From Sphaeroforma arctica JP610 (Eukaryota), in assembly GCF_001186125.1 (NCBI RefSeq), contig NW_014040426.1:36992-69438 (forward strand): DNA of 32,447 nucleotides, written 5' to 3'. A program made the translations under genes and the position numbers. The notes under the pieces are model-generated. The model was not told where the DNA came from. It did not search any database and saw only the letters and a program-made list of their open reading frames with translations. Shown in pieces: positions 1 through 14,985 of the stretch; position 1 is the stretch's first letter, and the number at the start of each line of letters is the position of its first letter.

Positions 1-350
1 CTTGTGAGTTATGAAGGGTTTAGCATCAACCCAGAACGGCTCCAGGTACTCCTTTCACTGACTGAACCCACAACTAAATCGAAATTATGATACCATACTG
101 TGGGACGCTGGGCAGAATGTATCCCACACTTTGCCCGAATACTGGCCCAAAATTGACTAAGTTCTAAGCATAGGACTAAGCGTATCTTCATACATTCCTA
201 CATATAGAAATAACGTTCAGCAAGTGCCCGTTCGCAGTGTTTAAACACCCTGTGGTGATCATCGGGCATCTTGTGAGTTATGAAGGGTTTAGCATCAACC
301 CGGAACGGCTCCAGGCACTCCTTTCGCTGACTGAACCCACTACCAAATCC
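1..350 (+). repeat. Direct repeat of an ~81-bp RT segment (1-81 and 270-350)
   Basis: CTTGTGAGTTATGAAGGGTTTAGCATCAACCC...AAATC occurs twice, with 6 substitutions. Confidence 0.9.
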
Positions 351-1818
351 GTATATTGTTGTTACTTAAGGATGATAGCATATTCCACTAGGGTGTCCCG
401 CAGAGCAATACATTCCAGCACATTAAGTAATTACTTTGAGACTGCACAGGACTTGTGGAGCCAGCCCCGCAGAACATATAATTATGTTTGTAGACACATG
501 TAAAGACGTAGGTGTGGGAGTTGTGCTCGTCGTTCATAGAGATGGGAAGTATCTTCCTATCACATCCTTTTGTTCTCATTCGACCAGGCCCAACGGATAT
601 ACCACATAACTGATAAGGAGGCATTAGCCCACGTAAATGGGTTTCGCAAAATAATATACGCATCTTGCGCCGCTCGCTACTACCGATTAAGGTGTTCACT
701 GATCACCAGCCCCTTCTTGCGCTTCTGAGCTAACCGCGGAGCTCGTTTGGGGATGATGTACGTGGTCGTCGAATGGGGTACATTTTACATATACCCTTTA
801 TTAACGTTCGGGGAGATACAATGGTGATTTGGGGATTTAATTCACCGTGGACTCTCCTCTCTGCAGTAGATTTAAAGGCACATGCAGAGCGAGCATGCTG
901 CACCCTTGTACGTCCTTGTTGGCCGGATACAGAATGGTTGCTTATGCTGTGTGACTTGCCGGCTGATGAAACCCTTGGTGATTACTCGCGCAGCGGGCGT
1001 CTTCAATCGCTATGATCGGGCTCCTGAAGGATCACCATCATTTGTGACTCTAGTGTGTCATCCTGGCCCTTGGCTATTCTATGTCAGCTCCAGTGGGATG
1101 CATTTGCTCAGGTAACCCCAACTAGAGAGGATCCACTGGTGCTTACCCAGCCTATGGTATCACCTGGGTCAACGCCACTCTGCGATTTCTTTCATTGCGG
1201 TACATACACCACCACCACCTACATTTGTACCGGTACTAGATAGATCTCTCTAGAAAGCCGAATTCGTCTTTCTCGCTGGTAAACCACGGCGACAAGTGTG
1301 TTCACCTAGTTTGGCGCTAGGCACTGCTATGGTCGATGACATGCCGGATGCTATCTTAGCTCGGATGCTGCAGTCCCGGTCCCTGGTGGAGGTTCGCTGC
1401 ATTCTCCGGTCATAGGTGAAGGTGTTTCTGTTCATTCTCCCACCAGTTAGCCCTCCATTCTGTCCGTATTTCGGAAAGGTCCTATTGCGTCCCTCGTCCG
1501 GTTGACCTTTGGCACGTCTTCCGCGCGCATTATGGGGCGTGATGCTGACTGGCAAGCAAGTTGTCCGGGCACTTCAGTACGTGCACGCCTTCTTCCCAGA
1601 CCCGTTTTTGATACTACTTAGTGTACGATATGCTTGGGTGGGGGGTCTGAGAACACAAATTTGCATGATTTGATTAGCCGGGTTTGTGAACCCTGTCAGT
1701 GATGGGATCGTCCCCCACCGGAGACCTCGGCCCTCCTGCAATAACCAGAACGTACGGCCTTAATCTCAGCAAAATGGAGCCTCGATTTTGTTGAGATAAC
1801 TGCTGCGCCAGGAGGTGA
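1..1818 (+). mobile_element. Degenerate Ty3/Gypsy pol fragment (RT thumb/connection, RNase H, integrase remnants)
   Basis: GHLVSYEGFSINPERLQALLSLTEPTTKS (264-350) fits the Gypsy RT C-terminal LGH.VS..G...P motif. IKVFTDHQPLLALLS (686-730) is the Gypsy RNase H TDHxPL motif. Weaker integrase-like pieces follow. Many stops and frameshifts. Purine-rich AGGAGGTGAA at 1810-1819 may be a PPT. Confidence 0.7.
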
Positions 1819-1819
1819 A

Positions 1820-2187
1820 TGCTCAGTATTAGTGACAGTAAATTGTCAGTGTCCGTATTTCAGCCGGCCATGAAGACTTTGCGAGGTGTAACCAAGTTTG
1901 TTCGTACTACGTTGTTTGGTTCAGTCATTCAATTGATTTACTACAATTTTTGTAATTGTTCTCTTCGTTATCTGGTTTCTTCTTCTCCTCTTTTCTATAT
2001 ACTTGGCGCTTTGTTGGTGCCGATAGCCAGTATAGTCAGTCAGTCAGCCATTCAGCTATTAGGTTTTCGATCAGTCAGCTAGTCATCCCAGAGTCTTCCA
2101 GGGCAGTGAGGCTCTACTGCCATCTATGCATGAATAAGTCTATTCAAATGTATAAGTGTAGTTATGTGTACCATTGGCTGGGTGACA
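1820..2187 (+). repeat. Possible 3' LTR of the plus-strand Gypsy relic
   Basis: Starts with TG right after a PPT-like purine run, ends ...GTGACA, non-coding and T-rich. No second copy in the window. Confidence 0.3.
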
Positions 2188-2251
2188 ATTAAATAGATTC
2201 TGAGTTTAAAAAACCATCTAGCGCATCATGCCACGCTACGCATTTATATGT

Positions 2252-2398
2252 TGTCAAATACACAGAGATAACAGTATCTCAACGTACTCCCCTCGAAGCG
2301 GATATTTCTATAACCATAAACCCTAAACCTGGGTTTATGTCGTGTCCAAAATAAACCTCAAATAACCTTAAATAAACCCTATTGAGTATATCTGACCA
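2252..2398 (-). repeat. Candidate 3' LTR of the minus-strand Gypsy region (far boundary uncertain)
   Basis: On the minus strand TGGTCAGATA directly follows a poly-G tract. Candidate end ...TATTTGACA is an imperfect inverted repeat of the start. It does not match the LTR at 10891-11067. Confidence 0.3.
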
Positions 2399-2418
2399 CC
2401 CCCCCCCCCCCCCCCCCT
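2399..2418 (-). promoter_or_regulatory. Polypurine tract (PPT)
   Basis: A followed by 19 G on the minus strand, ~235 bp downstream of the pol stop at 2654 and immediately followed by TG. Confidence 0.6.
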
Positions 2419-2653
2419 AACGCTGAAGCACGTACCGTGTGCCAGCTTTCAAGAACGAAAATCTATTCACTACCCATAGGACGCTAGTTTAGCCTCCACG
2501 AACAAGAGGGATCCACTGGCATTTACACTCAGAGAGTTAGAGCAGTGGTTGACTTCTAAATTTAGAGAGCTAGAGGGCTCGGTTATGGACAACCACACGA
2601 GCGAGGCCTGTAAAGCAGAAGCAAAATGACAATAAATATGTATCTGTAAAATT

Positions 2654-3185
2654 TTAAGCCGCATCACGCCGGCGCTTGCGTGAACGTGTTTGCATATCCT
2701 TATGGTACGCGACGATGCCATTGGTATCTTCGAACGATTCTTCTGTCTCTCAGGGCGGGTCTCCTTCTCGCCACCATACGAGGTACTCCGTTTTTCCCAC
2801 TTCATCATTAGCGTGATGCTTAATGATGTGTCGGAACGCCGATCCGCCGTCGCGTCATAAACTCTCATCGAGGGGTGGATCTGTGCTACAGTGGACTAAA
2901 GCGACCTTTAAACTCCGGTCGGGCGGAACCATCCCTACGCGACAGATCGTACCCCTGGCCAGTACAGCCTTTTACTACATAAGGTTTGAATAAGGGGCGC
3001 ATTGCCTTGGATGTACGGCCCTCCGATTTGACCATGACCACATCGTCCTTCTCGAAGTGTACTAAGTCGTACGCATGGAGACGATTGAAATTCTTCGCCA
3101 GAGTGTCCGTGTATTTCATCGTCAATCTATATAGCGTGGGTAGAGACGATCAAGTCGTTGCGCCCATGTCTCATTCGTTATTCGT
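2654..3185 (-). pseudogene. Second integrase C-terminal module: GPY/F (SH3-like) domain plus chromodomain 2
   Basis: YTDTLAKNFNRLH...FEKDDVVMVKSEGRTSKAMRPLFKPYVV (ORF 2886-3125). After a frameshift: FRHIIKHHANDEVGKTEYLVWWREGDPP*ETEESFEDTNGIVAY (2836-2705), then RSRKRRR and TAA at 2656-2654. The chromodomain frame is not in the ORF track. Confidence 0.8.
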
Positions 3186-4160
3186 CCAGGTACGCTCTCC
3201 ATCTGTCCAATGCAGTAGGTACTCCTGGGATCCATCACCTCGGATGGACGACCTGTGGTCGACTATCGAGGGGACCTGAGTCTCCTCGGTTGGGGGTACG
3301 TGATTGTTGGAAGTGAATGCTTCCGGAGCGTTGGCCTTTTTTATGAGTCCAATTAGCTCATCACTGACCGATTTAGGATATTCGGGGGCTGTAGTCCCAT
3401 CAAGGTTACAGACAAAATACCCGTTGCCCTCTCTACATACTATTTTGTACTGTCCGCCATATGGTGCTGTCATCTTGTTCATTTCACCTTGATAGCGGAC
3501 CATGACAGTGTCCCTTTCCTAGAAGTGTATGTACTTCTTTGGTATTTTCGGTTGTATGCTGTGCGCATCTTCTCTTGGTATTGCGCAGCATTGCTGTCTA
3601 GTTGTGGCATAATGGCTTCTTCTATATGGTGCAATCGCTCTTCCTAAGATTTTGTTGTAACTGGGTGCGTTCACTGGTGTGTTGTAGACCGTGAGTTGAT
3701 TCTGTCTGCGACCAAAGTACACATTAAATCTCGGTGATTTGTGTCTTCTTAATGTGCGTAGATTGTGGCCCATCTGTACGAAGGGAAATCGTGAACACCA
3801 GTCATCTAAATTTTGTTCAACGAATTTACGTAACGGTGGTACGAGGTGCTTTAGGTTGGTACGGCCGAGAGACTAAGTGTTGTGTTGACACTTGTTCAAG
3901 GACTTTTGAAAATCTGTCATTAACATAACTATTTGTGGGAACCCATGTTCGCACATGTTTGGTACCAGCGTACGTGCTATAGTAGCCGCTGATTTGTCCA
4001 TATTGGGTGTAGTATGACATATGATGAGTGCACATCTAGCCATACTAATACATACGTGTGTTCTCTGTTTGAGTCCAGTAGTAGCCCAATGATGTTCACT
4101 TGGACTCTGTCGCCGGGAAATGCGACTTTGATTGATTGTAAGGGATGAGATCCCTTTTGT
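3186..4160 (-). pseudogene. DDE integrase core, GPY/F domain and chromodomain 1 (disrupted; HHCC zinc finger not seen)
   Basis: HPLQSIKVAFPGDRVQVNIIGLLLDSNREHTYVLVWLDVHSSYVILHPI (same frame as the MTase); DKSAATIARTL...EHGFPQIV; SRPYQPKA; NVYFGR; VMVRYQGEMNKMTAPYGGQYKIV; chromodomain QVPSIVDHRSSIRGDGSQEYLLHWTDGERTW (3278-3186). Confidence 0.85.
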
Positions 4161-4168
4161 GTATCCTA

Positions 4169-4504
4169 TTTGAAGTACGTATTGTTTGTGTTTTCCACTA
4201 GCATCGGGTCTTCTTCTAGTAAAGACAAGAATTTTGGAAACCACGTTGCATTGGGGTAGTATGGTACACATATCGCGATGCTGCTTGCCTCTTCAATGAC
4301 TCTGTCAAGGACATCAGGTATGAGTTACCATGGTGGGTTCGCCCATTCATTCACTTCCTGCGCCCACTTCTGTAGGAGCGCATTCTGTTCTTTGGTATAG
4401 TATTTTTCTGTGTGTGCATTGTGTGCCGATGCAAACAGATCTACTGAAAATTTCCCAAACCTTCTTTCAGCTTCTTTGTAGAATCTGGGGTGTATCATCC
4501 AGTC
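4169..4504 (-). pseudogene. Dam-like DNA N6-adenine methyltransferase domain within pol (phage Dam / DIRS-MT type)
   Basis: DWMIHPRFYKEAERRFGKFSVDLFASAHNAHTEKYYTKEQNALLQKWAQEVNEWANPPW*LIPDVLDRVIEEASSIAICVPYYPNATWFPKFLSLLEEDP. SAM-binding DLFA (~4430-4441), catalytic NPPW (4339-4328), in-frame TAA at 4327-4325. Confidence 0.88.
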
Positions 4505-4627
4505 TATAGCGGATATGGTAATGGGCATTTTGGATTCCAAGGTGGTGTACTCTTGGCTATTATGTGTTGTTTTGTTCGCGTCTTGTAGTATCTCTGACGT
4601 TTTAGTATTAAATGTGTCTTCGTGTAG

Positions 4628-4960
4628 ACGCGACGACATATATGCCATCTGGCTGTTTTTACCCGGAACATGTATGATGGAGAAGTGGTGGTATAATGTT
4701 TGTGCTATCCATTTGGCTAGCATTGGATGTAACGTCTGTTGACTGTTCATTTGCGTGAGCGCTTTATGATCTGTCCACAGTGTTATGACCCCTCCTTTGA
4801 TGTATTCGGCAGTATACTAGTGCTATTAGTTCTTTAGTGTTTGTGCCATAGCGTTGTTGTGCTGGATTCAAGCTTTTGGAAAAGTAGAGAATGTCTCTCC
4901 TGACTCAATCGATGACTTGAAATAAACATCCTCCTATACCATAGTCACTAGCATCGTTCA
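4628..4960 (-). pseudogene. Ty3/Gypsy-type RNase H
   Basis: NDASDYGIGGCLFQVID*VRRDILYFSKSLNPAQQRYGTNTKELIALVY, then (frameshift) ITLWTDHKALTQM...LAKW...FSIIHVPGKNSQMAYMSSRL. Confidence 0.9.
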
Positions 4961-4999
4961 TGTTTGAAACGGTACCCCATCAACAGGGTATGCTAGCGT

Positions 5000-5860
5000 C
5001 GCCGAACACGCGATGGCTTCTTTGAGTTCTTCCCACTTCTCTTTGAGGTCCGGAGTCAATAACATGGATATGTTCTGGTTTATTTTCCTTTTCATTAGGA
5101 TCCGGTAGTGTTTAGTTGAGTGGGCAACGCATATAGTTTGTGAGTCCCACCGCTTTGTGCAGATCTCCTTTCATTCTGGGTAGTGGCCAGTCCAGCATCC
5201 TTTTCTGTTTTTCAGGATCCGCTTTGAGTCTCTGTGTGGTGACTTACATACCTAGAATGTTGACCATTTTGACCGCGAAGGCACATTTGTTGTGATTGAG
5301 TCGGAAGTTTGCTCCATTTAGTCGCTTGATTACTTCACGAACTGTCTTGCGGTGTTCTTCCTCTGTAAGACTCGCAATGACTATGTCATTTACATACACT
5401 TGCACTCCTTTGATGTCTATGAGCAATTCTGCCATGACTCTCTGGAATTGTGCTGTGAGTGAGTGTAGGCCAAACGGCGCTGACTTGAATGAGCATTGCG
5501 CTCCTTTCCACGAGAATGTGAAGAAGTGTTGGCTTTCTTGCTCTACTAGGAAATGGTGGAACCCTCCCGCGAGATCTAACTTTGAGAAGAATTGTGCTCC
5601 TTGTAGGTTGTGGAGTACTTCCTTTATTTTTGGCAGCACGAATTTATCTTGTTCATATTGGTAATTGATCTCGCGTAAGTTTAAACATGTTCTTACTTTC
5701 TTGAGGAGACCTGTTTAGTCATGTTCACCTGTCGATAACAAAGGTAGATTCACCGATATCGGTGTATTTCGTTTGTATATGTGACCATCTGTAAGCCACC
5801 TTTGTACATTTTCATCCGTTTGCGGAATATACTTGTGAGGTACAAAGTTGACTTTAACGT
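5000..5860 (-). pseudogene. Reverse transcriptase (Ty3/Gypsy), inactivated
   Basis: KVRTCLNLREIN, LPKIKEVLHNLQGAQFFSKLDLAGGFHH, FKSAPFGL...FQRVM, YVND (5396-5385, in place of YVDD), RLNHNKCAFAVKMVNILG. Confidence 0.95.
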
Positions 5861-6059
5861 GCCTCATTTGTGTGACATTAATGTCATTTTTGAAGGTCCT
5901 GTGACTGTAGAGCCCGGTAGGTTGCAATAAATGCCAGGCGGTATGTTTGCATTGGTATCCAAGAGGTCTGCAAGTGACTCTCTGAACCCTCCTTGTTCAT
6001 GCTCAGGATCTTCTTCATGTGGCGTGGGAAGTGATTCCCATTTTGCATCTGCTAGTATA

Positions 6060-6392
6060 AGTAGATTGATTAATCCTGCTATGTATATGCTTATGTATGG
6101 TAGAATCTCCATACCGAGAAGTATTGGTGCTTTCTTTTCTGGCAAATCCAACACTTCAAAACACTTAGAGGTTTTCCTTCCTCCATAATTAATGTCATAT
6201 ACTTGGATTGACCCTGTTCTTTGTATTGTTGCATATATTTGTGCTAGTTGAATGTAGCCCGGCTGCGCTCTGACAGAGAGATATAGTTCAGTTGCTACAC
6301 TCGTGTCCATACATGAGCGTTGCGCATCAGAGTCTACTGATGCATTGTATATGTTGCCATTGATTTGTATGCCAATGTGTAATCGTTGGTCT
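6060..6392 (-). pseudogene. Retroviral-type aspartic protease
   Basis: RLHIGIQINGNIYNASVDSDAQRSCMD (DSDA at 6334-6323 for D[S/T]GA), and FEVLDL...ILLGMEIL, in frame with ORF 5864-6310. Confidence 0.85.
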
Positions 6393-6559
6393 CGTGGTGC
6401 GGGAAGTAAGGATAAGGTTGGTAATTTATTTCATATGCATTTATCAACAGCGTTTCTTCATCTGTATTTACATTGAGCCTGTCAGCCAGGTCAATCATGT
6501 TTGCTTCGGCCCACCAGTTTTTTCAGTGCTCATCGCCATCTGTGATATCTTCTACCTTG

Positions 6560-8026
6560 CCGGATGTATTGGACAATCTTGCTATTTGCACATCGTTTTT
6601 GACACGCTCCTCAGCCTGCTTGGTCTGATACGATGCCTTCATGGGACATAGACTGAAACGTTGTGGGGCTGGCATCACCTTACAATAAGGACATGCACGA
6701 TCTTCGCGAGCCCCTTTCTTCTCTTGGGGTTGTCCGATTGATTTGATTTGTTTCAGTGCACCGTTGTCTGGTTTGTGACGTTTGGTCGCGGTGGGTTTGC
6801 CGTTCTGAGACTGGCTGTGTGTGACTGCCTGCGAGTTGTCTCTTGCGCTCTCTATACAAACGATCTGTCTATACTTGGCGCTGCTCTTCCGTTTGCTTCA
6901 GTAAGAGAGTGAAACACAGTGTGTTTCATATCGGATAAGAGACCTTCACTTCCATCAGGCAGTTTATCTGCTTTGATGATGGCATCCACTTTCTCCTGTT
7001 GTTCGTAGTACGTAAATGCCTGGTATCTTGTGGCCTTGAGGATTTTCGTGTGTATAGGCTCTATGTTCGAGTTGCGGTGACGCTCTTCTAACACTTGCAT
7101 TGTTCTATGCAATCGCTCTGTGCGCACCTCTACGTTCAGTGTCTTGTTCCGCATGTTGAGAAACTTCTCTAACAGATAGATTACTGGATGGTGTCTGAGT
7201 CTATCAATAATGGTTCTATTGTGTTGTTCAGGATCCTTGTAGTGCTTGGTCATATGTGTTTCAGAGTTTCGTAACTCGATGAGCACTGCCTTGGTCTTCT
7301 TCGTTGCATCAGTGAAGTCTAATAGATATATCACTAGCGCTGGGTACTGACATCGTGGCACAGACTTGGCTAAGAATAGGTCTCTGCATTGCGTAGTAAA
7401 CTCTATAATATCTTCACAATTTCCCATTTTGAAATAACAGTCTCTGGGTAACTTCGGAAATTCTGAGGTTTTAGTAGTTTAGAAAGTGCATGTTCATTGA
7501 TCTTTCGCCTAAGCGTGAACGCATAAGTTCTAACTCAATAATTAGTTGACTGATTTGAATGAGTTTATCTTCCTCATCGTCGCCACACGGTTAAATCGTA
7601 TCTTCTTCCGAGTTCTGTATCTACTATTGGCATGCATCGTTCTGGCTGTTGGTAGCGAATGCATACTCTCATCTTGTGTAGACTTGGGATAATCACCGGT
7701 GCTCTTTGTTCCAATTTGGATACAAACTTACTAACCAGGACGTGGTTACATTGACAGATGCTCTTGTCTATCTCTAAACGCATTGCTGAAGCTTGTACGG
7801 GTACTCCCCTCGGTGTTGGCTGGCTTGAGCCACTGCCTGGGCTTGCCCCCCCTGCTGGGCTGTCCCGTGCTCCATCCGCATCAACACCACCTCCTTCACC
7901 ACCATACACGCCTGCTCTGGTTGCCGTTGGTATCTTGAGGCGCCTGTGGTGGTGTGTGGGTGTTGCAGGTTATTAGTAAAGGCGTATGCTATTTTCTGTG
8001 CGAATGTGCGCTTCACCCCCTTGCAT
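6560..8026 (-). pseudogene. Gag (capsid-like region plus degenerate zinc knuckle) directly upstream of pol
   Basis: Candidate ATG at 8026, G/S/P-rich N-terminus, helical region FPKLP...EDIIEFTTQCRDLF (ORF 6852-7427), knuckle-like CPYCKVMPAPQRFSLCP (6693-6643). Position before the protease. Confidence 0.65.
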
Positions 8027-8071
8027 TTGCTAATAACTTGTATAAAATAAATAAAATTTGAATTTGTCTTC

Positions 8072-10861
8072 CTAACTTTTATTGTGGTCTCCCTTTGCTG
8101 CATTTCCATGTGAAGTGTTTACCTTCCGGTGTGGTTCGGTGGCTTGTTGCATTCCTTCCTGTAATTGGGAGGCTTTAAATGATGTAGGGATATTCGGCAA
8201 CTCGAGTGACCTATTGCTGATCTCTGTGCCGTATCGTATCGTACTTCTGTCGTCCCAGTCGATGAGTTCGTACCGTCTTGTCAGCTAAAAAAATAAATAA
8301 CCCAGGTGGTGCCGGAGTATTTGGACGGCCGAGAAGTTCTGCGGATGTCTTCGAGATGCAGCTCGGAACGTGCGCCCGTTCACTTGTACTTGTATATAAA
8401 AACGGTTATCAAGTGTCAGCAATAGGACCTGTATGGTCATCACTGTATTGATTGTGCTAACGAGTATTAAACTCACATCTGACTCAGACACCCTCACATC
8501 TCATGCCTGCTCATGCACCGGCTCCCAACTATCGTGTAGCTGGTCTGGGGCTGGTGTGTCGTCACCATATTCCTCTGTAAGAATTGCGTCTATGTGAACT
8601 GCACCTTCTTCTGGAATGCCTTGGAATTCATTATACTGTGTGACTGTGTTCACCTGGGCCTGTTGGTTGGCCGCGAAAGGTTTGCTTGTGTTGTTACCTT
8701 GGTCTTGCCCTGGTGTAAAACTATTAGTCGGTCCCTGTGCTGGTGGCGCACCTGACTGTGGTCGGTTCTGTTCAGACTGACGGCGCGACTATCGCCTCCC
8801 CCCGGAGCTACTGCTCTGTATTGATAGCAGCTCGAAATGTGTCATGCACCAGATGGTACTCGTGACTGACAGCCAGTGCATGTCGTTGGGGTCGCTGTCT
8901 GTAGGCGTGATGACCAGTTCTGCGTTTGTAGTTGTACTACCTGCAGTATCGGGAGACTGATAGTATATGCGCGCGACTTTGGAGGTCGTCGCATTTTCCC
9001 TACCCTGGTGCTGAAGACGTGCGGTTGTGCGTTGTTGTGCCTCTTGTATATCGGGACTCAGTAGTTGCAACAATTGGTCCGTCTCCATTAACTGCCACTT
9101 CAGATGCAGTTGTAGTGTTCGTTCGTATGTGCGACCATGGAGTGCTGTCTTCAATAGCTGCAAAANNNNNNNNNNNNNNNNNNNNGGAATCGGCATCGTT
9201 ATTGCAACGCTCGCGTGCCCGTCTATGATTCTCCATGAGTTGGGTCATCTGCTCCATAACCGGTACGCTCATGTCAAGGTTATGTCCTTTGGCTGACTTG
9301 CGTATGGCCTGGTCGACTGTCACCTGAGTCTCGTGGGAACATATTTATTCTATCTGCAACATGGGTGTCCACATCTTTAACTTTTCCGTGTTATCGCGAA
9401 CATAGTCCTGTGTGGACTTTACTGCCTTAAAATGCGTCAATACTCTGTAGAACCATATTAGACTCCAGCTCTCGTCGATACCTGCTATCTGTGCATTCTT
9501 CTATGCTTCGAGGAGAGCTCCTCTCGTATCCTGTTCCATAAAATCGCTGAGATGGTATCTGTTCGATGGATATTCAGGCCATTGCTTCCGCATTGGCACT
9601 CTGCGCTTCTCTGTTGCCTTGGCTTCATATGCTCCACGTAGCGAGTTTAGTATACCCTGTAAGGCTTCTGCACGTAGCGTATCTATATCATCAAGGGCTT
9701 TGCACATCTGTTCACTCACTTGGAGGGCGCCTGCGTGAAGCTTGCGACGATTGTTCTCAATCTCCTTTAGCGTAGGTGGAGGCGCGACCACTTCCTTATC
9801 CTTCTTGGGTGGTTTGGGCGTTGGAGTAGGTAAATTATTACCGAATGTATTGTCATCGCTGGATGAAACATTGTTGTTGGACGAATCAGGGTCATGGCCT
9901 GGGCGCTGCTGCTGCTTGCATGAATATACTTACCCTTCTGGACTTCATTACCCGACGTTTCGTGTATAGATTCCTTACGACGCTGTTGTTTGCGTACCTT
10001 GGTATGCAATCGGTCGTGCATGTTCTCCAGCGCTTCCTTTCAATGCGGATTTTCCTTGGTGCGTGATTGCTGGCAGACGACATCTAGGAGGGATCCGGTC
10101 TCACTTGTAGGTATTTGATTATCTGAGTCTGGAAACTCATACCCTAGTCCGTGGTGCTTACGCTTAGGACCTGGGATACGGAATTCTGGATTATCGTCGG
10201 CTTCATCTGATGAACCCTTACCCTGCTTGGTGATACGGCGACGTGTACGTTTGCGGTTAGGTGGGCGTCGAAGTACCTCGCTACGTGTTGAGACATTATC
10301 CTCGTTGTTAGGTGGAAGTAGTATTGGACCTGATGATCGCGGTGGGTTGTTGCTCACAGTTACTTTAGCCGGTACAGGTGACTGCCGTAGTGGTTGGTCA
10401 CTATCGGTGTCAGCTGCGACGGCAGCGGCGACCGCTGGACCGAGAATGTGGGCGAGGACCCCCGAAGACGGACCTGAAGACGAGCTAGCACCCCCTACAT
10501 TGTTACAAAGGGTACTAACTTGCTCCCGGATCGCATGTATATCAGTGGTTGTTATCCGCTTATTGTCTGTAGAGACACATTCTCCTTCATGCCTGGAGGT
10601 TGCAGCACTTATGGAACCCGGTGCTGCATTCTCCTCCTGATATTCGTTGGTTGTGACATCAGGTAACTGTCCTCTGTGGGCGAGGTAGGTACGATGCAAA
10701 AGGTCCAAGTTTGCTGCATGCATCTCAGCATTTCCTTCTTCATTAGGGTTGGCTGCTGAGTTGGAACGTCGATGTTCGGTGCCACGTCGGTCGATATCGT
10801 CCTCTACATCACGTTCTGAACTGAGTTGTTGTATTCGTCGGCTATGGCGAGCGTTGGGCAT
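8072..10861 (-). pseudogene. Long disrupted gag-like ORF immediately downstream of the 5' LTR
   Basis: ATG at 10861, 30 bp inside the LTR boundary. Disordered basic N-terminus (PPNRKRTRRR, PKRKHH), helical segments (ORFs 9501-9791, 9000-9323), knuckle-like CTGC...*HISSC (8880-8827), and protease-like strand RFYIQVQVNGRTFRA (~8404-8360). Contains stops, frameshifts and a 20-N gap. Confidence 0.5.
9166..9185. other. Assembly gap (20 N)
   Basis: Run of N. Confidence 1.
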
Positions 10862-10890
10862 TGTTGAGGAGGTATAGACACCACTTAGAT

Positions 10891-11067
10891 TGTCGTGGAA
10901 ATGTATGGGCCTTAAGATGAAAGTGCACGTAGTATTTGTAGTAATACAGACACAGGTCCAGTAATTAAATACCCAATAGCTGCCTCAAGCTCTATCCCCA
11001 TACACCCGAGTCACCGACGAGTGATTCCCTTGACCTGGGCTCAGGCACCTCTACTCGCACCATGACA
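10891..11067 (-). repeat. Putative 5' LTR (177 bp)
   Basis: Bounded by an 8-bp terminal inverted repeat with 7/8 match (TGTCGTGG at 10891, CCATGACA ending 11067), TG...CA termini, internal TATTTAA on the minus strand, and followed on that strand by TGG and the ORF start. Confidence 0.6.
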
Positions 11068-11638: not shown

Positions 11639-12281
11639 NNNNNNNNNNNNNNNNNNNNNNNNNNNNNNNNNNNNNNNNNNNNNNNNNNNNNNNNNNNNNN
11701 NNNNNNNNNNNNNNNNNNNNNNNNNNNNNNNNNNNNNNNNNNNNNNNNNNNNNNNNNNNNNNNNNNNNNNNNNNNNNNNNNNNNNNNNNNNNNNNNNNNN
11801 NNNNNNNNNNNNNNNNNNNNNNNNNNNNNNNNNNNNNNNNNNNNNNNNNNNNNNNNNNNNNNNNNNNNNNNNNNNNNNNNNNNNNNNNNNNNNNNNNNNN
11901 NNNNNNNNNNNNNNNNNNNNNNNNNNNNNNNNNNNNNNNNNNNNNNNNNNNNNNNNNNNNNNNNNNNNNNNNNNNNNNNNNNNNNNNNNNNNNNNNNNNN
12001 NNNNNNNNNNNNNNNNNNNNNNNNNNNNNNNNNNNNNNNNNNNNNNNNNNNNNNNNNNNNNNNNNNNNNNNNNNNNNNNNNNNNNNNNNNNNNNNNNNNN
12101 NNNNNNNNNNNNNNNNNNNNNNNNNNNNNNNNNNNNNNNNNNNNNNNNNNNNNNNNNNNNNNNNNNNNNNNNNNNNNNNNNNNNNNNNNNNNNNNNNNNN
12201 NNNNNNNNNNNNNNNNNNNNNNNNNNNNNNNNNNNNNNNNNNNNNNNNNNNNNNNNNNNNNNNNNNNNNNNNNNNNNNNNN
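11639..12281. other. Assembly gap (643 N)
   Basis: Run of N. Confidence 1.
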
Positions 12282-12559: not shown

Positions 12560-14985
12560 GAGAAAGTGGTGTTCATTTTGGACTTGGAGTGTTTCTCGGT
12601 CACTATCTAAATTTTACCGCCGACACTTGGTTAATACAAAAAAATCTCAGCGAATGCTCTACTCACGCAACATTCAATTATTTCCTCCAGAATTTCCTGA
12701 GTGGTCGGCCGACGAAAAGCGATGCTCACCACCCCAGGCTCATATACCATTCCTATCGATTGGGCAACTGACTTAAGTAAAGGCACCAAATCTGTGCCAT
12801 TCATCTCACCATGTTTCCCCGATGTTGCCACTCGATCCAATGCACCGACCGCCTCGATCTCCATCCCGACCTCGTCTTCCCCGTCTGTTGCCTCTCACCC
12901 ACCAGCGTCCAACATCGTTTCTAAGGCCGTTCTTTCGTCCGCTGTCCCCTCCGTCTATTCTCAACCACCGCAACCGGCCTCAGCTCCTCCCATCGACTTG
13001 CATCATTTCCCTACCTTTCCTTCTCCCGCTCCTCGTACTGATCAGACCACCTCTCTCCTTCCGAAGTCCCCCCCGGGTGCTCCAAAATGACTGTTGCCAC
13101 CGATTTTTCTCACTTCCCCCACAATACACAGTGATTCTACCGATCACATCAATATTGTCTCCTTGACACCACCACCAACGAGCATTATTCCACCAATGCC
13201 CTCCGCCGTGCCCCTACCTCGCCTCCAACCTGGTTATGTTGAATCCCGCAACATACCGCTTCTCTCCGATATACGTCGCATTTCACAGGCTAAACCTCTG
13301 AGTACTCCCCTACTTGCTGACCGTGCTCACCTTTGTGTTCTACCACCACCCGCCCCGTCTAATTCCCGTCGCAGCCTATCTTTCCTCCAGCTTGAAGCCA
13401 TGCTTGGTTAACCGTGCGCTATATTACCCCCTAAAAGTACAACTCGTCGCCGTCGCCCAATACCACCCCATACAATACATCCTGCCCCAACGCTAATAAC
13501 TCTCCAATACACTTACTCTACTTGATGAATCACTTCAAGCATCCCGTTGACGTCCTCGCCAATCCCAGGCACAACCAGTTTTTCCTCCCGGACCACCTGA
13601 TTCTTCTGACCCCAGTATTTGTGCACTAGTTCCTACTTTAGCCCCCACGTGTCATCTTTCTGACGCCCCTGCTGATAATTTCATTTATGGTTCTGATGCT
13701 GATGATGTGCACCCCGCCGTCGCTCCATCATTCAAACACAAGACTACATTATCACTCCTGGACGCTATCAATTCCCTGGACCCTAAGCTGCCCGAGAGCG
13801 TTAAACAAGCTCAAGCACAGAAAGAATGGCCTAATTGGGAAGCTGCAATTTACAAAGAGCACGCGGTCGATGACAGGAACCAACTTGCCGATCTCATTCC
13901 TACTGCAGATGTCCCTCATGACGCTCGCATCATCCACTCCAAACACGTTTTTAACATTGAACACGACTAACATTAAGCACGACGAAAATGGCTGCTGACC
14001 AATTTCAAAGCTCGCCTCGTTGCTCAGGCGATCAACAACAGCAGGGCGATTCAATTTGGCAAACCTACGCACCAGCCGCTATCTCATGCACACTTCGTCT
14101 TTTCCTCGCGAATGCCGCTTTCAACAACCTCGACGTCTTTCACATTGACGCCGATACAGCGTAATTATATTCTCTTCTTGACACGTCGGTCTATATGTAT
14201 CCTCCGCTAGCAGCCTTGATCTGGGATATTACAAACTATTCCATGTTATCCACCTTAAACGTGGCTTATACGGGCTTAAGCAGGCTGATCGCCTGTGTAT
14301 TATAGATATCGCCACAAATTTGAAAGACCTTAATTTTATCCGCTCTTATGCCGAAGGAAGTATCTGAATCCACCGCACCCGTCGCACTATTGTTGTCCTC
14401 TATGTGGATGAAATTGTGCCTGTAGTGCCTCGCAATTCTGACGAAGAGCAATGGCTCTTCAAGGCATTAGGCAAATACTATAGTATTATAAGTTATCGGC
14501 CTCGCATCTCACCTTGTCGGTCTCCGAATTCCTCACTTGAAAAGGGAATAATTATCGACCAGCATGCCTACACTTGTTCTTTGCTCGATACGTTTCCACT
14601 CCCAATATACGCTGCCTAAATACATACCGGGCACACTGTCACACTGTAGCCCTGACACACTGGTTACCTCACCCATCACTTCAACAAAAAAGGTTTCTGC
14701 CAACTTTTCGGCGCCTTGAGTTTCGCTGCAAATCTTACCCGTCTTGACGTCTCAGTTACGCTTAGTTAAACCCACAGATGCACACAAGGTTGCACATGAA
14801 CGTATCCTTCATTATCTACACACTACTATGGATTATTCGATCATATACAAACGCTAACTTCCTAATCAAACTTTCAGTTCTGCTCTCGTCGCCTATACTG
14901 ACTCTGATTGGAGCGGCTGCCGCATGTCTAGCAGATCACAAACTGTGACACTCATCTGTTTTAAGGGCTCCTCCATAAATTGGAC
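12560..14985 (+). mobile_element. Degenerate Ty1/Copia pol fragment (post-integrase SH3-like region, P/S-rich spacer, RT, start of RNase H)
   Basis: GVFLGH...[81 protein letters not shown] (YVDE 14401-14412); AYTDSDWSGCRMSSRSQT. Integrase-before-RT order and these motifs are Copia-type. Many stops and frameshifts. Confidence 0.92.

What the first reader, a model, noticed from the sequence alone, without database searches (positions are those of the whole stretch)
2654..6392. Ty3/Gypsy retrotransposon whose pol carries a Dam-like N6-adenine DNA methyltransferase between RNase H and integrase
Seen: ORF 4750-4325 runs from the Gypsy RNase H end (HVPGKN...SRL) through a ~35-aa linker into DWMIHP...VDLFASAHNA...YYTKEQNALLQKW...WANPPW. 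Reading through one TAA, the same frame continues LIPDVLDRV...AICVPYYPNATWFP, and after a second stop (4168-4166) into the DDE integrase core. Established: DLFA...NPP[W/Y/F] is the SAM-binding/catalytic signature of phage Dam-type adenine methyltransferases. In retroelements this domain is characteristic of DIRS-class tyrosine-recombinase elements, which lack protease and DDE integrase. Here the host has a protease, Gypsy RT/RNase H (TDHKAL), a DDE integrase and chromodomains. Inference: a Gypsy lineage captured a 6mA writer that would be processed and packaged with pol and could methylate its own cDNA or target site, alongside chromatin-reading chromodomains. This copy is dead. I cannot establish from sequence alone whether such a family is already described.
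Basis: partly seen in the sequence, partly recalled or inferred. Interest (0 to 1): 0.88.

Follow-up and report, generated by a model that had tools for sequence, protein, structure and literature searches.

The report
Dead Gypsy retrotransposon with adenine methyltransferase
This is a broken copy of a repeated Gypsy-type jumping gene that carries a phage-like adenine methyltransferase domain between RNase H and integrase, a design that a 2026 preprint already described in the likely host group; the one addition is that intact relatives also end in a divergent chromodomain that the preprint reported as absent.

Summary
Window 4504-4169 (minus strand) is a Dam domain (Pfam PF05869, E 1.4e-15) lying in one frame between a Gypsy RNase H and an integrase core. 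Intact natural homologues carry PR-RT-RH-Dam-zinc finger-integrase in one ORF, other copies in the same organism join Dam to integrase, and the RT groups with Gypsy, not DIRS. So it is not a chimera or a misassembly.

It is not new. bioRxiv 10.64898/2026.05.21.726589 describes DAM-LTRs, including an ichthyosporean lineage. The closest named relatives here are Sphaeroforma arctica and Abeoforma whisleri proteins. This scan also met the design in other genomes.

Corrections: this copy has lost about 109 codons (Dam C-terminus plus zinc finger), and its second chromodomain comes from a different element joined at 3183.

Small addition: 12 of 14 lineage polyproteins end in a divergent chromodomain, which the preprint says the lineage lacks. 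The substrate is unproven. The closest solved fold is the RNA methyltransferase PCIF1.

In passing: two Copia-type polyproteins also carry Dam.

The parts
3183..8527 (-). Approximate extent of the decayed DAM-LTR copy (the part shared with many other copies)
   Evidence: Summed contig depth is far above the flanks from about 3200 to 8527 in four runs and drops to flank level beyond. Depth is not a copy number. No LTR pair was found in the window.
6523..7478 (-). Likely gag region, in two frames
   Evidence: Open frames of 208 and 124 aa upstream of the protease, inside the multi-copy stretch. No informative Pfam hit. The gag call is inferred from position.
5894..6412 (-). Aspartyl protease region, catalytic motif altered
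   Evidence: gag-asp_proteas E 1.6e-7; 72% identical to P0003 residues 35-207.
5187..5759 (-). Reverse transcriptase core, Ty3/Gypsy type, with stops and an altered YxDD motif
   Evidence: RVT_1 E 1.3e-19; local RT profile 224 bits; groups with P0002, P0003 and P0004 on the Gypsy side of the tree.
4625..4976 (-). Gypsy RNase H (DASD ... TDHKAL ... SRL), frameshifted
   Evidence: RT_RNaseH_2 E 5e-12 and RT_RNaseH 1.2e-10 on the X read-through; motif positions. Limits are approximate.
4505..4624 (-). RNase H-Dam linker, 40 residues
   Evidence: Translation. It is less conserved than the flanking domains in intact homologues (46-77%).
4169..4504 (-). Dam-type N6-adenine methyltransferase domain (DLFA at 4441, NPPW at 4339), with a stop right after NPPW and the C-terminal strand deleted
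   Evidence: PF05869 E 1.4e-15. The intact homologue's domain folds at pLDDT 96 and matches phage N6A methyltransferases (E 3e-10) and PCIF1 (Z 10.7).
4159..4169 (-). Deletion junction of this copy: about 109 codons missing (Dam C-terminus, linker, HHCC zinc finger)
   Evidence: tblastn of P0003 stops at residue 789 and resumes at 899. Contigs in two runs join Dam to integrase with 361 other letters in place of 30.
3700..4159 (-). DDE integrase core, frameshifted and partly degraded
   Evidence: 72% and 51% identical to P0003 residues 899-951 and 952-1241. rve is weak here and strong in intact homologues (E 1e-12).
3183..3518 (-). Integrase C-terminal SH3/GPY-like region and the family's divergent chromodomain (about 3275-3183, truncated)
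   Evidence: Chromo E 0.036. All 5 PDB hits at E<=1 are chromodomain proteins. The homologous stretch of P0006 hits HP1-beta at E 1.7e-4.
2657..3183 (-). Tail of a different Gypsy-type element: a second SH3-like region and a second chromodomain, joined on at 3183
   Evidence: 27-28% identity to the family's own tail. Flank-depth contigs 2411-3228 and 2422-3228 with 3 and 0 differences span the junction. Chromo E 0.0044. All 10 PDB hits at E<=1 are chromodomain proteins.
2399..2418 (-). Poly-G run followed by TG: likely the polypurine tract and LTR start of the second element
   Evidence: Sequence and raised depth at 2253-2503. The function is inferred; no partner LTR was found.

Best explanation
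This is a dead copy of a multi-copy Ty3/Gypsy family, likely of the ichthyosporean DAM-LTR lineage, whose Pol runs protease-RT-RNase H-Dam-zinc finger-integrase-SH3-chromodomain; in active copies the Dam domain likely travels with Pol in the particle and would N6-methylate adenines of the element's own reverse-transcription intermediates. Shown: the domain order, its repetition in intact homologues, retention of both methyltransferase motifs, the methyltransferase fold (a predicted model), the Gypsy RT, and the decay of this copy. Inferred: the domain is a bare 140-residue catalytic core with no room for a separate target-recognition domain, so it probably has little sequence specificity and depends on closeness to its substrate. 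Next to RNase H, that substrate is most simply the RNA/DNA hybrid or single-stranded cDNA. Inferred from the preprint's model: after integration, host AMT1 would maintain the seeded 6mA at ApT and keep the new copy transcribed. The divergent chromodomain may bias insertion sites, but in this subfamily it is unlikely to read methyl-lysine in the classical way. Identity as a DAM-LTR: about 0.95. Membership of the ichthyosporean lineage: about 0.85. This mechanism: about 0.45.
For: Architecture: (P0002 and P0003, 1288 aa, 68-74% identical to the window query; P0004, 995 aa, 53%). Linkage in other copies. RT: the window row sits with P0002, P0003 and P0004 (SH-aLRT 99), inside a 12-row DAM-LTR group that includes Abeoforma P0126 (91, unstarred); 21 DIRS-like rows are split off at 100. 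Dam: the window row sits with S. arctica SARC_09892, P0002 and P0003 (100/99). NPP[W/F] is present in 18 of 18 lineage rows examined and D-x-[F/M/I]-A in 17 of 18 (the 18th is truncated). Dam identity between P0003 and P0004 is 59%, equal to RT (59%) and above the two flanking linkers (46% and 29%), which is consistent with purifying selection. Fold: pLDDT 96; phage N6A methyltransferases rank first in BFVD; PCIF1 ranks first in PDB. [quoted passage not shown] The preprint reports more 6mA and more expression on DAM-LTRs than on other LTRs in S. arctica and A. whisleri.
Against: No activity has been shown. The preprint's expression of DIRS, DAM-LTR and adintovirus Dams in Dam-deficient E. coli gave no rise in 6mA. 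Iyer, Zhang and Aravind argue that DIRS1 methyltransferase domains derive from PCIF1 and are likely inactive (PMC4738411, passage). The 6mA on DAM-LTRs is correlative and could be laid down by AMT1 on transcribed copies. Motif counts are biased, because the rows were found with a profile that holds the motif. The 18 lineage rows do not form one supported clade in the Dam tree (open fork, 140 columns). The preprint says the ichthyosporean lineage lacks chromodomains, which this family does not fit. The host of the window is inferred from relatives, not shown. dN/dS could not be computed.
Confidence: 0.5

Rival explanations
1. The domain is an RNA methyltransferase of the PCIF1 kind. It would put m6A or m6Am on the element's transcript (cap-adjacent or internal) or on its primer, to aid stability, translation or packaging. 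The 6mA seen on genomic copies would then be a by-product of transcription.
For: All 4 Foldseek PDB matches at E<=0.001 are PCIF1/CAPAM. PCIF1 is first in the wide search (Z 10.7, rmsd 2.7, 130 aligned), ahead of RNA enzymes DIMT1, Erm and KsgA (Z 8.3-9.2) and T4/E. coli Dam (8.2, 8.1). No DNA methylation was seen in E. coli.
Against: Phage enzymes annotated as DNA N6-adenine methyltransferases match far better (E 3e-10, TM 0.78), and that family has no solved structure in the lists returned, so PCIF1 may lead by default. A shared fold shows no substrate. The domain lacks PCIF1's other domains.
Confidence: 0.2
2. The domain is kept as a non-catalytic module: a SAM- or nucleic-acid-binding spacer or targeting unit within Pol.
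For: Negative E. coli assay; the inactivity argument for DIRS1 domains; unchecked scan notes of other Gypsy families that keep the domain with the motif lost (leads only). In my DIRS-like rows 8 of 30 have no Asn in motif IV.
Against: In this lineage the Asn-Pro-Pro-aromatic motif is intact in 18 of 18 rows, across RT path distances of up to about 1.4 changes per site.
Confidence: 0.15
3. The domain stays fused to integrase and methylates double-stranded DNA at the insertion site, with integrase and the chromodomain supplying the targeting that the enzyme lacks.
For: It sits directly before the integrase zinc finger. It has no target-recognition domain of its own (141-residue model). A chromodomain is present across the lineage. 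Failure as a free domain in E. coli would be expected.
Against: The Dam-zinc finger linker is the least conserved stretch of Pol (29-38%). The same domain occurs in DIRS elements, which have no DDE integrase, and at other positions in Pol.
Confidence: 0.13
4. A one-off chimera or misassembly of a DIRS fragment within a Gypsy element.
For: This copy is rearranged: a deletion at 4169 and a foreign tail from 3183.
Against: Intact single-ORF homologues come from NCBI, Logan, ENA and JGI sources. Contigs of other copies bridge Dam to integrase. The same order occurs in an Abeoforma protein.
Confidence: 0.02

Closest known systems
Ichthyosporean DAM-LTR lineage (Pirum gemmata, Abeoforma whisleri, Sphaeroforma arctica) of Fernandez-Moreno et al., bioRxiv 10.64898/2026.05.21.726589 (whole main text read; figures and supplements not seen)
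   Same: Ty3/Gypsy RT, protease and DDE integrase with a PF05869 Dam domain in Pol and the NPP triplet kept. The closest named relatives are S. arctica SARC_09892 (64% identical to the window over 117 aa; listed from EukProt, the set the preprint screened) and three A. whisleri proteins.
   Different: The preprint says this lineage lacks chromodomains. Here 12 of 14 lineage polyproteins, Abeoforma P0126 included, end in a divergent chromodomain. None of those scanned reaches the preprint's E<1e-5 threshold with Pfam Chromo (best 0.0011), which would explain the miss. The main text does not give the position of Dam in this lineage; here it lies between RNase H and the zinc finger.
DIRS1-type tyrosine-recombinase retrotransposons with a C-terminal MT (Dam-like) domain (PMC5890265 and PMC4738411, passages read)
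   Same: Same Dam family, directly after RNase H. DIRS-like rows and Gypsy rows share one side of the Dam tree, apart from 20 prokaryotic/phage rows (100/100).
   Different: Here the RT is of Gypsy type, and there is a protease and a DDE integrase. Dam is internal, not C-terminal.
Chromoviruses (Ty3/Gypsy elements with an integrase C-terminal chromodomain), groups CHD_I and CHD_II (PMC3350952, passages read)
   Same: A chromodomain follows an SH3/GPY-like region at the end of integrase.
   Different: The window's subfamily keeps only the central Trp of the three-residue cage, like CHD_II, which that paper reports only from plants. Other lineage members keep an aromatic at the first cage position (7 of 13). 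The RT does not group with the chromodomain-bearing fungal, plant and fish rows of my tree.
Phage PF05869-type DNA N6-adenine methyltransferases and PCIF1/CAPAM
   Same: Same minimal Rossmann N6-adenine methyltransferase core, with motif I shortly before motif IV.
   Different: Embedded in a retroelement polyprotein; 13-25% sequence identity in the top fold matches; the substrate has not been shown.

Membership tests
Ty3/Gypsy LTR retrotransposon | Pol order PR-RT-RH-IN with a DDE integrase | tested here: met
Ty3/Gypsy LTR retrotransposon | RT groups with Gypsy, not DIRS | tested here: met
   56 Gypsy-side rows against 21 DIRS-like rows, SH-aLRT 100 (quick tree). The DIRS-like label is mine, from architecture.
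Ty3/Gypsy LTR retrotransposon | Paired LTRs, PBS, PPT and target-site duplication | tested here: inconclusive
   No LTR pair in the window. The 3' end is replaced by another element's tail, and no DNA of an intact copy was available.
DAM-LTR retrotransposon (Fernandez-Moreno et al. 2026) | PF05869 Dam domain at E<1e-5 in the Pol of an integrase-type LTR element | tested here: met
   Window E 1.4e-15; intact homologues 4e-15 to 2e-12
DAM-LTR retrotransposon (Fernandez-Moreno et al. 2026) | Dam belongs to the eukaryotic TE clade, not to a prokaryotic or viral one | tested here: met
   68 TE-side rows against 20 prokaryotic/phage rows, 100/100. The outgroup sample is small and motif-selected.
DAM-LTR retrotransposon (Fernandez-Moreno et al. 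2026) | Catalytic Asn-Pro-Pro triplet conserved | tested here: met
   18 of 18 lineage rows
DAM-LTR retrotransposon (Fernandez-Moreno et al. 2026) | Raised 6mA and expression of copies; methyltransferase activity | not testable with these tools
Ichthyosporean DAM-LTR lineage | Dam and RT related to those of S. arctica and A. whisleri elements | tested here: met
   Dam groups with SARC_09892 at 100/99. RT shares a 91-support group with Abeoforma P0126. Abeoforma proteins rank among the top Dam-profile hits. The Dam tree alone does not join the window's subfamily to the Abeoforma rows with support.
Ichthyosporean DAM-LTR lineage | Lacks chromodomains (as described in the preprint) | tested here: not met
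   Since Abeoforma P0126 itself has the domain, I read this as a gap in the published description, not as exclusion of this family.
Ichthyosporean DAM-LTR lineage | Host is an ichthyosporean | tested here: inconclusive
   Inferred from named relatives and a neighbouring receptor tyrosine kinase gene. No genome was held for the window.
DIRS retrotransposon | Tyrosine recombinase in place of a DDE integrase; no protease; DIRS-type RT | tested here: not met
   Protease and DDE integrase are present and the RT is Gypsy-type
Chromovirus-type element | Chromodomain at the integrase C-terminus | tested here: met
   HP1-beta hit at E 1.7e-4 for P0006. 11 of 12 PDB hits for the P0003 tail are chromodomain proteins. 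Profile-profile probability 98.7. All are below Pfam's curated cut-off.
Chromovirus-type element | Three-residue aromatic cage of classical (group I) chromodomains | tested here: not met
   P0002, P0003 and P0004 keep only the central Trp
EpiLTR (Dam + DNMT + chromodomain) | Cytosine methyltransferase domain | tested here: not met
   No DNMT family among the Pfam hits of intact homologues

The most novel reading that the evidence does not exclude
The ichthyosporean DAM-LTRs are in fact chromodomain-bearing elements, so pairing an adenine methyltransferase with a chromatin reader is the rule for this lineage and was missed by a score threshold. Their methyltransferase is a PCIF1-like enzyme that marks the RNA or RNA/DNA hybrid inside the particle rather than genomic DNA. 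That would explain the negative E. coli assay and would give a first defined substrate for the MT domain of retroelements. The chromodomain half alone I put at about 0.85; the probability given is for both halves.
Probability: 0.3. Interest if true: 0.6.

Novelty: already known. Interest (0 to 1): 0.27.

Why it matters
The design is striking but in print as a preprint, for the likely host group, so this copy is an extra, broken example. Two things are useful to a specialist. First, the lineage described as chromodomain-free appears to carry a divergent chromodomain, which changes how its targeting should be read. Second, the fold comparison and the lack of a target-recognition domain point to single-stranded or hybrid substrates, which the one published assay (double-stranded E. 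coli DNA) could not detect. Natural intact proteins (P0002, P0003, P0008) exist for testing this. The Copia-type Dam carriers seen in passing may be the newer lead: 'copia' does not occur in the preprint's main text, a full-text search returned no paper on it, and no scan note holds all the words.

Tried and rejected
No whole genome is held for the window, so copies could not be counted or dated and dN/dS was not run. Per-domain protein identity is a weaker stand-in.

Pattern scans of metagenome and viral contigs returned 14 and 14 loci, none above 54% identity and none a close family member. I used them only as a prokaryotic/phage outgroup; 20 distinct Dam-like segments from them entered the tree.

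A structure prediction on a 3-row alignment was poor (pLDDT 51) and was not used. The 70-row alignment gave pLDDT 96. Sequence searches of the PDB with the Dam profiles gave nothing significant for the domain (PCIF1 at E 1.4). Alignment A2 was not used. The ESM Atlas gave no result.

No RNA holder on record was listed for the stretch; this is no evidence on expression. All laid runs were contigs, so depth is not a copy number.

LTR searches within the window were negative. The upstream frames at 8500-10984 matched no Pfam family and no stored protein, so a nested-insertion model linking them to the foreign tail at 3183-2399 could be neither shown nor excluded. The donor of the Dam domain is not resolved by my tree.

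Rows left out: 3 of 80 intended RT rows had too short an RT segment (77 used). The Gypsy rows were a subset (38) of the 117 hits. Of the 150 Dam hits, 27 went to Pfam, 44 (one more short batch), and about 64 entered the Dam tree.

A search for work on DIRS-1 MT mutants found nothing relevant. The paper reader was closed, so the preprint's supplements were not seen. They may list this exact family, show the Dam position, or mention chromo-like tails or Copia elements.
Full report
What is there. The minus strand from about 8527 to 3183 holds a decayed LTR-retrotransposon coding region. Three-frame translation and Pfam give, in order, an aspartyl protease (E 1.6e-7), RVT_1 (1.3e-19), Gypsy RNase H (5e-12), Dam PF05869 (4504-4169 read with X at the stop; E 1.4e-15, 57.8 bits, cut-off 28.1), a weak rve (0.034) and two weak chromo-like stretches (0.036 and 0.0044). 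RNase H tail, linker, Dam and the start of the integrase core share one frame, broken by stops at 4327 and 4168. The copy is dead: it has at least six in-frame stops and at least six frame changes, and the protease, RT and first integrase motifs are altered.

It is a family trait. A search with the RNase H-Dam-integrase junction found 3 long proteins among 635 candidates: P0002 and P0003 (1288 aa) and P0004 (995 aa). Each has RT, RNase H, Dam, an HHCC zinc finger and rve in one ORF, and P0002 and P0003 also have the protease. Against P0003 the window lacks residues 790-898, that is the last part of Dam, a linker and the zinc finger. So Dam touches the integrase core only through a deletion in this copy. 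Contigs laid on the stretch agree. Between about 2,000 and 3,300 contigs per run fit 1500-9000, most under 95% alike. In two of four runs a contig carries Dam and integrase with 361 other letters where the window has 30. The misassembly and one-off readings fail.

The second chromodomain is foreign. At 3183 contigs of other copies leave the window's sequence (13, 11 and 4 contigs in three of four runs). From there to 2657 the window holds a second SH3-like region and chromodomain only 27-28% identical to the family's own tail, followed by a poly-G tract and TG at 2418-2398. Flank-depth contigs with 0 and 3 differences span the junction by 45 bases, so it is real DNA and belongs to this locus or a few like it. 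Intact homologues have one chromo-like domain, not two.

Phylogeny. In an RT tree of 77 rows (quick IQ-TREE, LG+G4, SH-aLRT only) the window groups with P0002, P0003 and P0004 (99), inside a 12-row Dam-bearing group (91, unstarred). The 21 DIRS-like rows are separated at 100. DIRS-like is my label for proteins with RT and a terminal Dam and no integrase. Dam-bearing Gypsy rows need 6 changes on that tree (2 forced by starred branches), which fits repeated capture without proving it. In a Dam tree of 88 rows and 140 columns the window groups with P0002, P0003 and P0008 (100/99), and all TE rows stand apart from 20 prokaryotic/phage rows (100/100). Deeper forks are open and no donor can be named. 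P0008 is NCBI 'hypothetical protein SARC_09892 [Sphaeroforma arctica JP610]', the only hit among 10 candidates, and is 64% identical to the window over 117 residues. P0126, P0127 and P0129, among the best of 4,896 profile hits, are Abeoforma whisleri proteins. A receptor tyrosine kinase gene lies nearby. The host is therefore likely an ichthyosporean close to Sphaeroforma. This is inferred.

Precedent. The first literature search returned bioRxiv 10.64898/2026.05.21.726589, which I read in full (main text; figures and supplements not seen). It reports at least four transfers of Dam from DIRS into Ty3/Gypsy elements, names an ichthyosporean lineage in Pirum, Abeoforma and S. arctica, and finds more 6mA and more expression on these elements than on other LTRs. 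It found no activity in Dam-deficient E. coli. Its screen used EukProt, one of the sources listed for P0008. The scan's own notes hold 23 findings with these words in at least 3 other genomes (unchecked AI notes, consulted after my own tests). The main claim is therefore already known.

Where my results differ from the preprint. It states that the ichthyosporean lineage lacks chromodomains. A profile of 18 retrotransposon chromodomains from outside the lineage finds a C-terminal match in 13 of 14 lineage polyproteins. 12 of the 14 score above the best of 714 shuffled or reversed decoys (4.6 bits); the two misses are truncated P0129 and P0131. Profile-profile probability is 98.7. That last figure is partly circular, since the segments were cut with the same profile. 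Independent support comes from the PDB: P0006 residues 622-680 hit HP1-beta at E 1.7e-4, and 11 of 12 hits for the P0003 tail are chromodomain proteins. None of the lineage proteins scanned passes E<1e-5 with Pfam Chromo (best 0.0011), the preprint's threshold, which likely explains the discrepancy. The central Trp of the methyl-lysine cage is kept in 13 of 13 segments and the first cage aromatic in 7 of 13, but not in the window's subfamily. That resembles group II chromodomains as defined in PMC3350952 (passages).

How it likely works. The Dam domain is about as conserved as RT between P0003 and P0004 (59% each; RNase H 66%, integrase core 73%, flanking linkers 46% and 29%). Between the closer pair P0003 and P0002 it is less conserved than RT (80% against 93%). 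NPP[W/F] is intact in 18 of 18 lineage rows (these rows were found with a motif-bearing profile). The model of the intact domain (141 residues, pLDDT 96) is a bare methyltransferase core. It matches phage DNA N6-adenine methyltransferases best among predicted viral structures (E 3e-10, TM 0.78) and PCIF1/CAPAM best among solved structures (Foldseek 7e-5; Z 10.7 against 8.2 for T4 Dam). PCIF1 prefers ssRNA, then RNA/DNA hybrid, then ssDNA, then dsDNA (PMC9178792, abstract). Iyer and colleagues place DIRS1 domains with PCIF1 and consider them likely inactive (PMC4738411, passage). From established LTR-element biology (own knowledge), Pol is packaged with the genomic RNA and cut by the protease. 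I therefore think it most likely (about 0.45-0.5) that the domain methylates adenines of the reverse-transcription intermediate, and that host AMT1 then keeps the mark on the new insertion, as the preprint proposes. RNA methylation (0.2), a non-catalytic role (0.15) and integrase-tethered methylation of the target site (0.13) remain open. No step of catalysis was shown here.

Verdict. It is a dead member of a described class in a described host group. The added value is a correction on chromodomains, a sharper substrate hypothesis, and a side lead on Copia-type Dam carriers.

Noticed in passing
Proteins P0213 (2098 aa) and P0234/P0289 (1838 aa); not in the window: Ty1/Copia-type polyproteins (Retrotran_gag_2, zf-CCHC, Pol_BBD, SH3_retrovirus, RVT_2) that carry Dam PF05869 (E 1.3e-8 and 7.4e-11), once before and once after the protease-type domain. 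Both keep DVFA and NPPW and pair at 100/100 in the Dam tree. P0234 has a full-length twin from a second source. 'Copia' is absent from the preprint's main text, and searches found no description. Hosts are unknown.
   Followed up: partly
window 1-1000, + strand: A second, far more decayed Gypsy-type remnant: an RT-thumb-like stretch at 204-392 (tblastn 5e-7), RNase H-like motifs, then the C-terminal half of a Dam-like domain at 836-970 (15 bits, E 7e-6 within the window, motif IV altered). No Pfam hit. It may be a second Dam-bearing family. An 80-base direct repeat (1-80 and 270-349, 94%) lies in it.
   Followed up: partly
Proteins P0140 (2144 aa) and P0155 (2382 aa): Polyproteins with an Exo_endo_phos domain, then Dam, then RT, RNase H and an integrase zinc finger: Dam upstream of RT together with an APE-type nuclease in a Gypsy-like layout. 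The P0140 cluster has four full-length members from two sources.
   Followed up: partly
Protein P0233 (691 aa): Integrase, a weak chromo hit, then Dam at the C-terminus: another position of Dam in Pol.
   Followed up: no
Proteins P0053, P0060 and P0044: Gypsy polyproteins with extra precomputed domains: PF00856 (SET, name recalled) plus chromo in P0053 and P0060, and several ankyrin-type families (names recalled) in P0044.
   Followed up: no
window about 26100-17577, - strand: Multi-exon receptor tyrosine kinase gene with beta-helix, EGF and TNFR-like repeats, a likely transmembrane segment and PK_Tyr_Ser-Thr (E 1e-30).
   Followed up: no
window about 13550-14900, + strand: Decayed Ty1/Copia RT remnant (RVT_2, E 9e-7 and 4e-5 in two frames).
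   Followed up: no
window 8500-10984, - strand: Open frames of 95-314 aa with no Pfam or stored-protein match, directly upstream of the element. They may be the gag of an older element into which this copy inserted.
   Followed up: partly
window 11640-12280 and about 9165-9185: Assembly gaps (runs of N), the larger one beside AT microsatellites.
   Followed up: no
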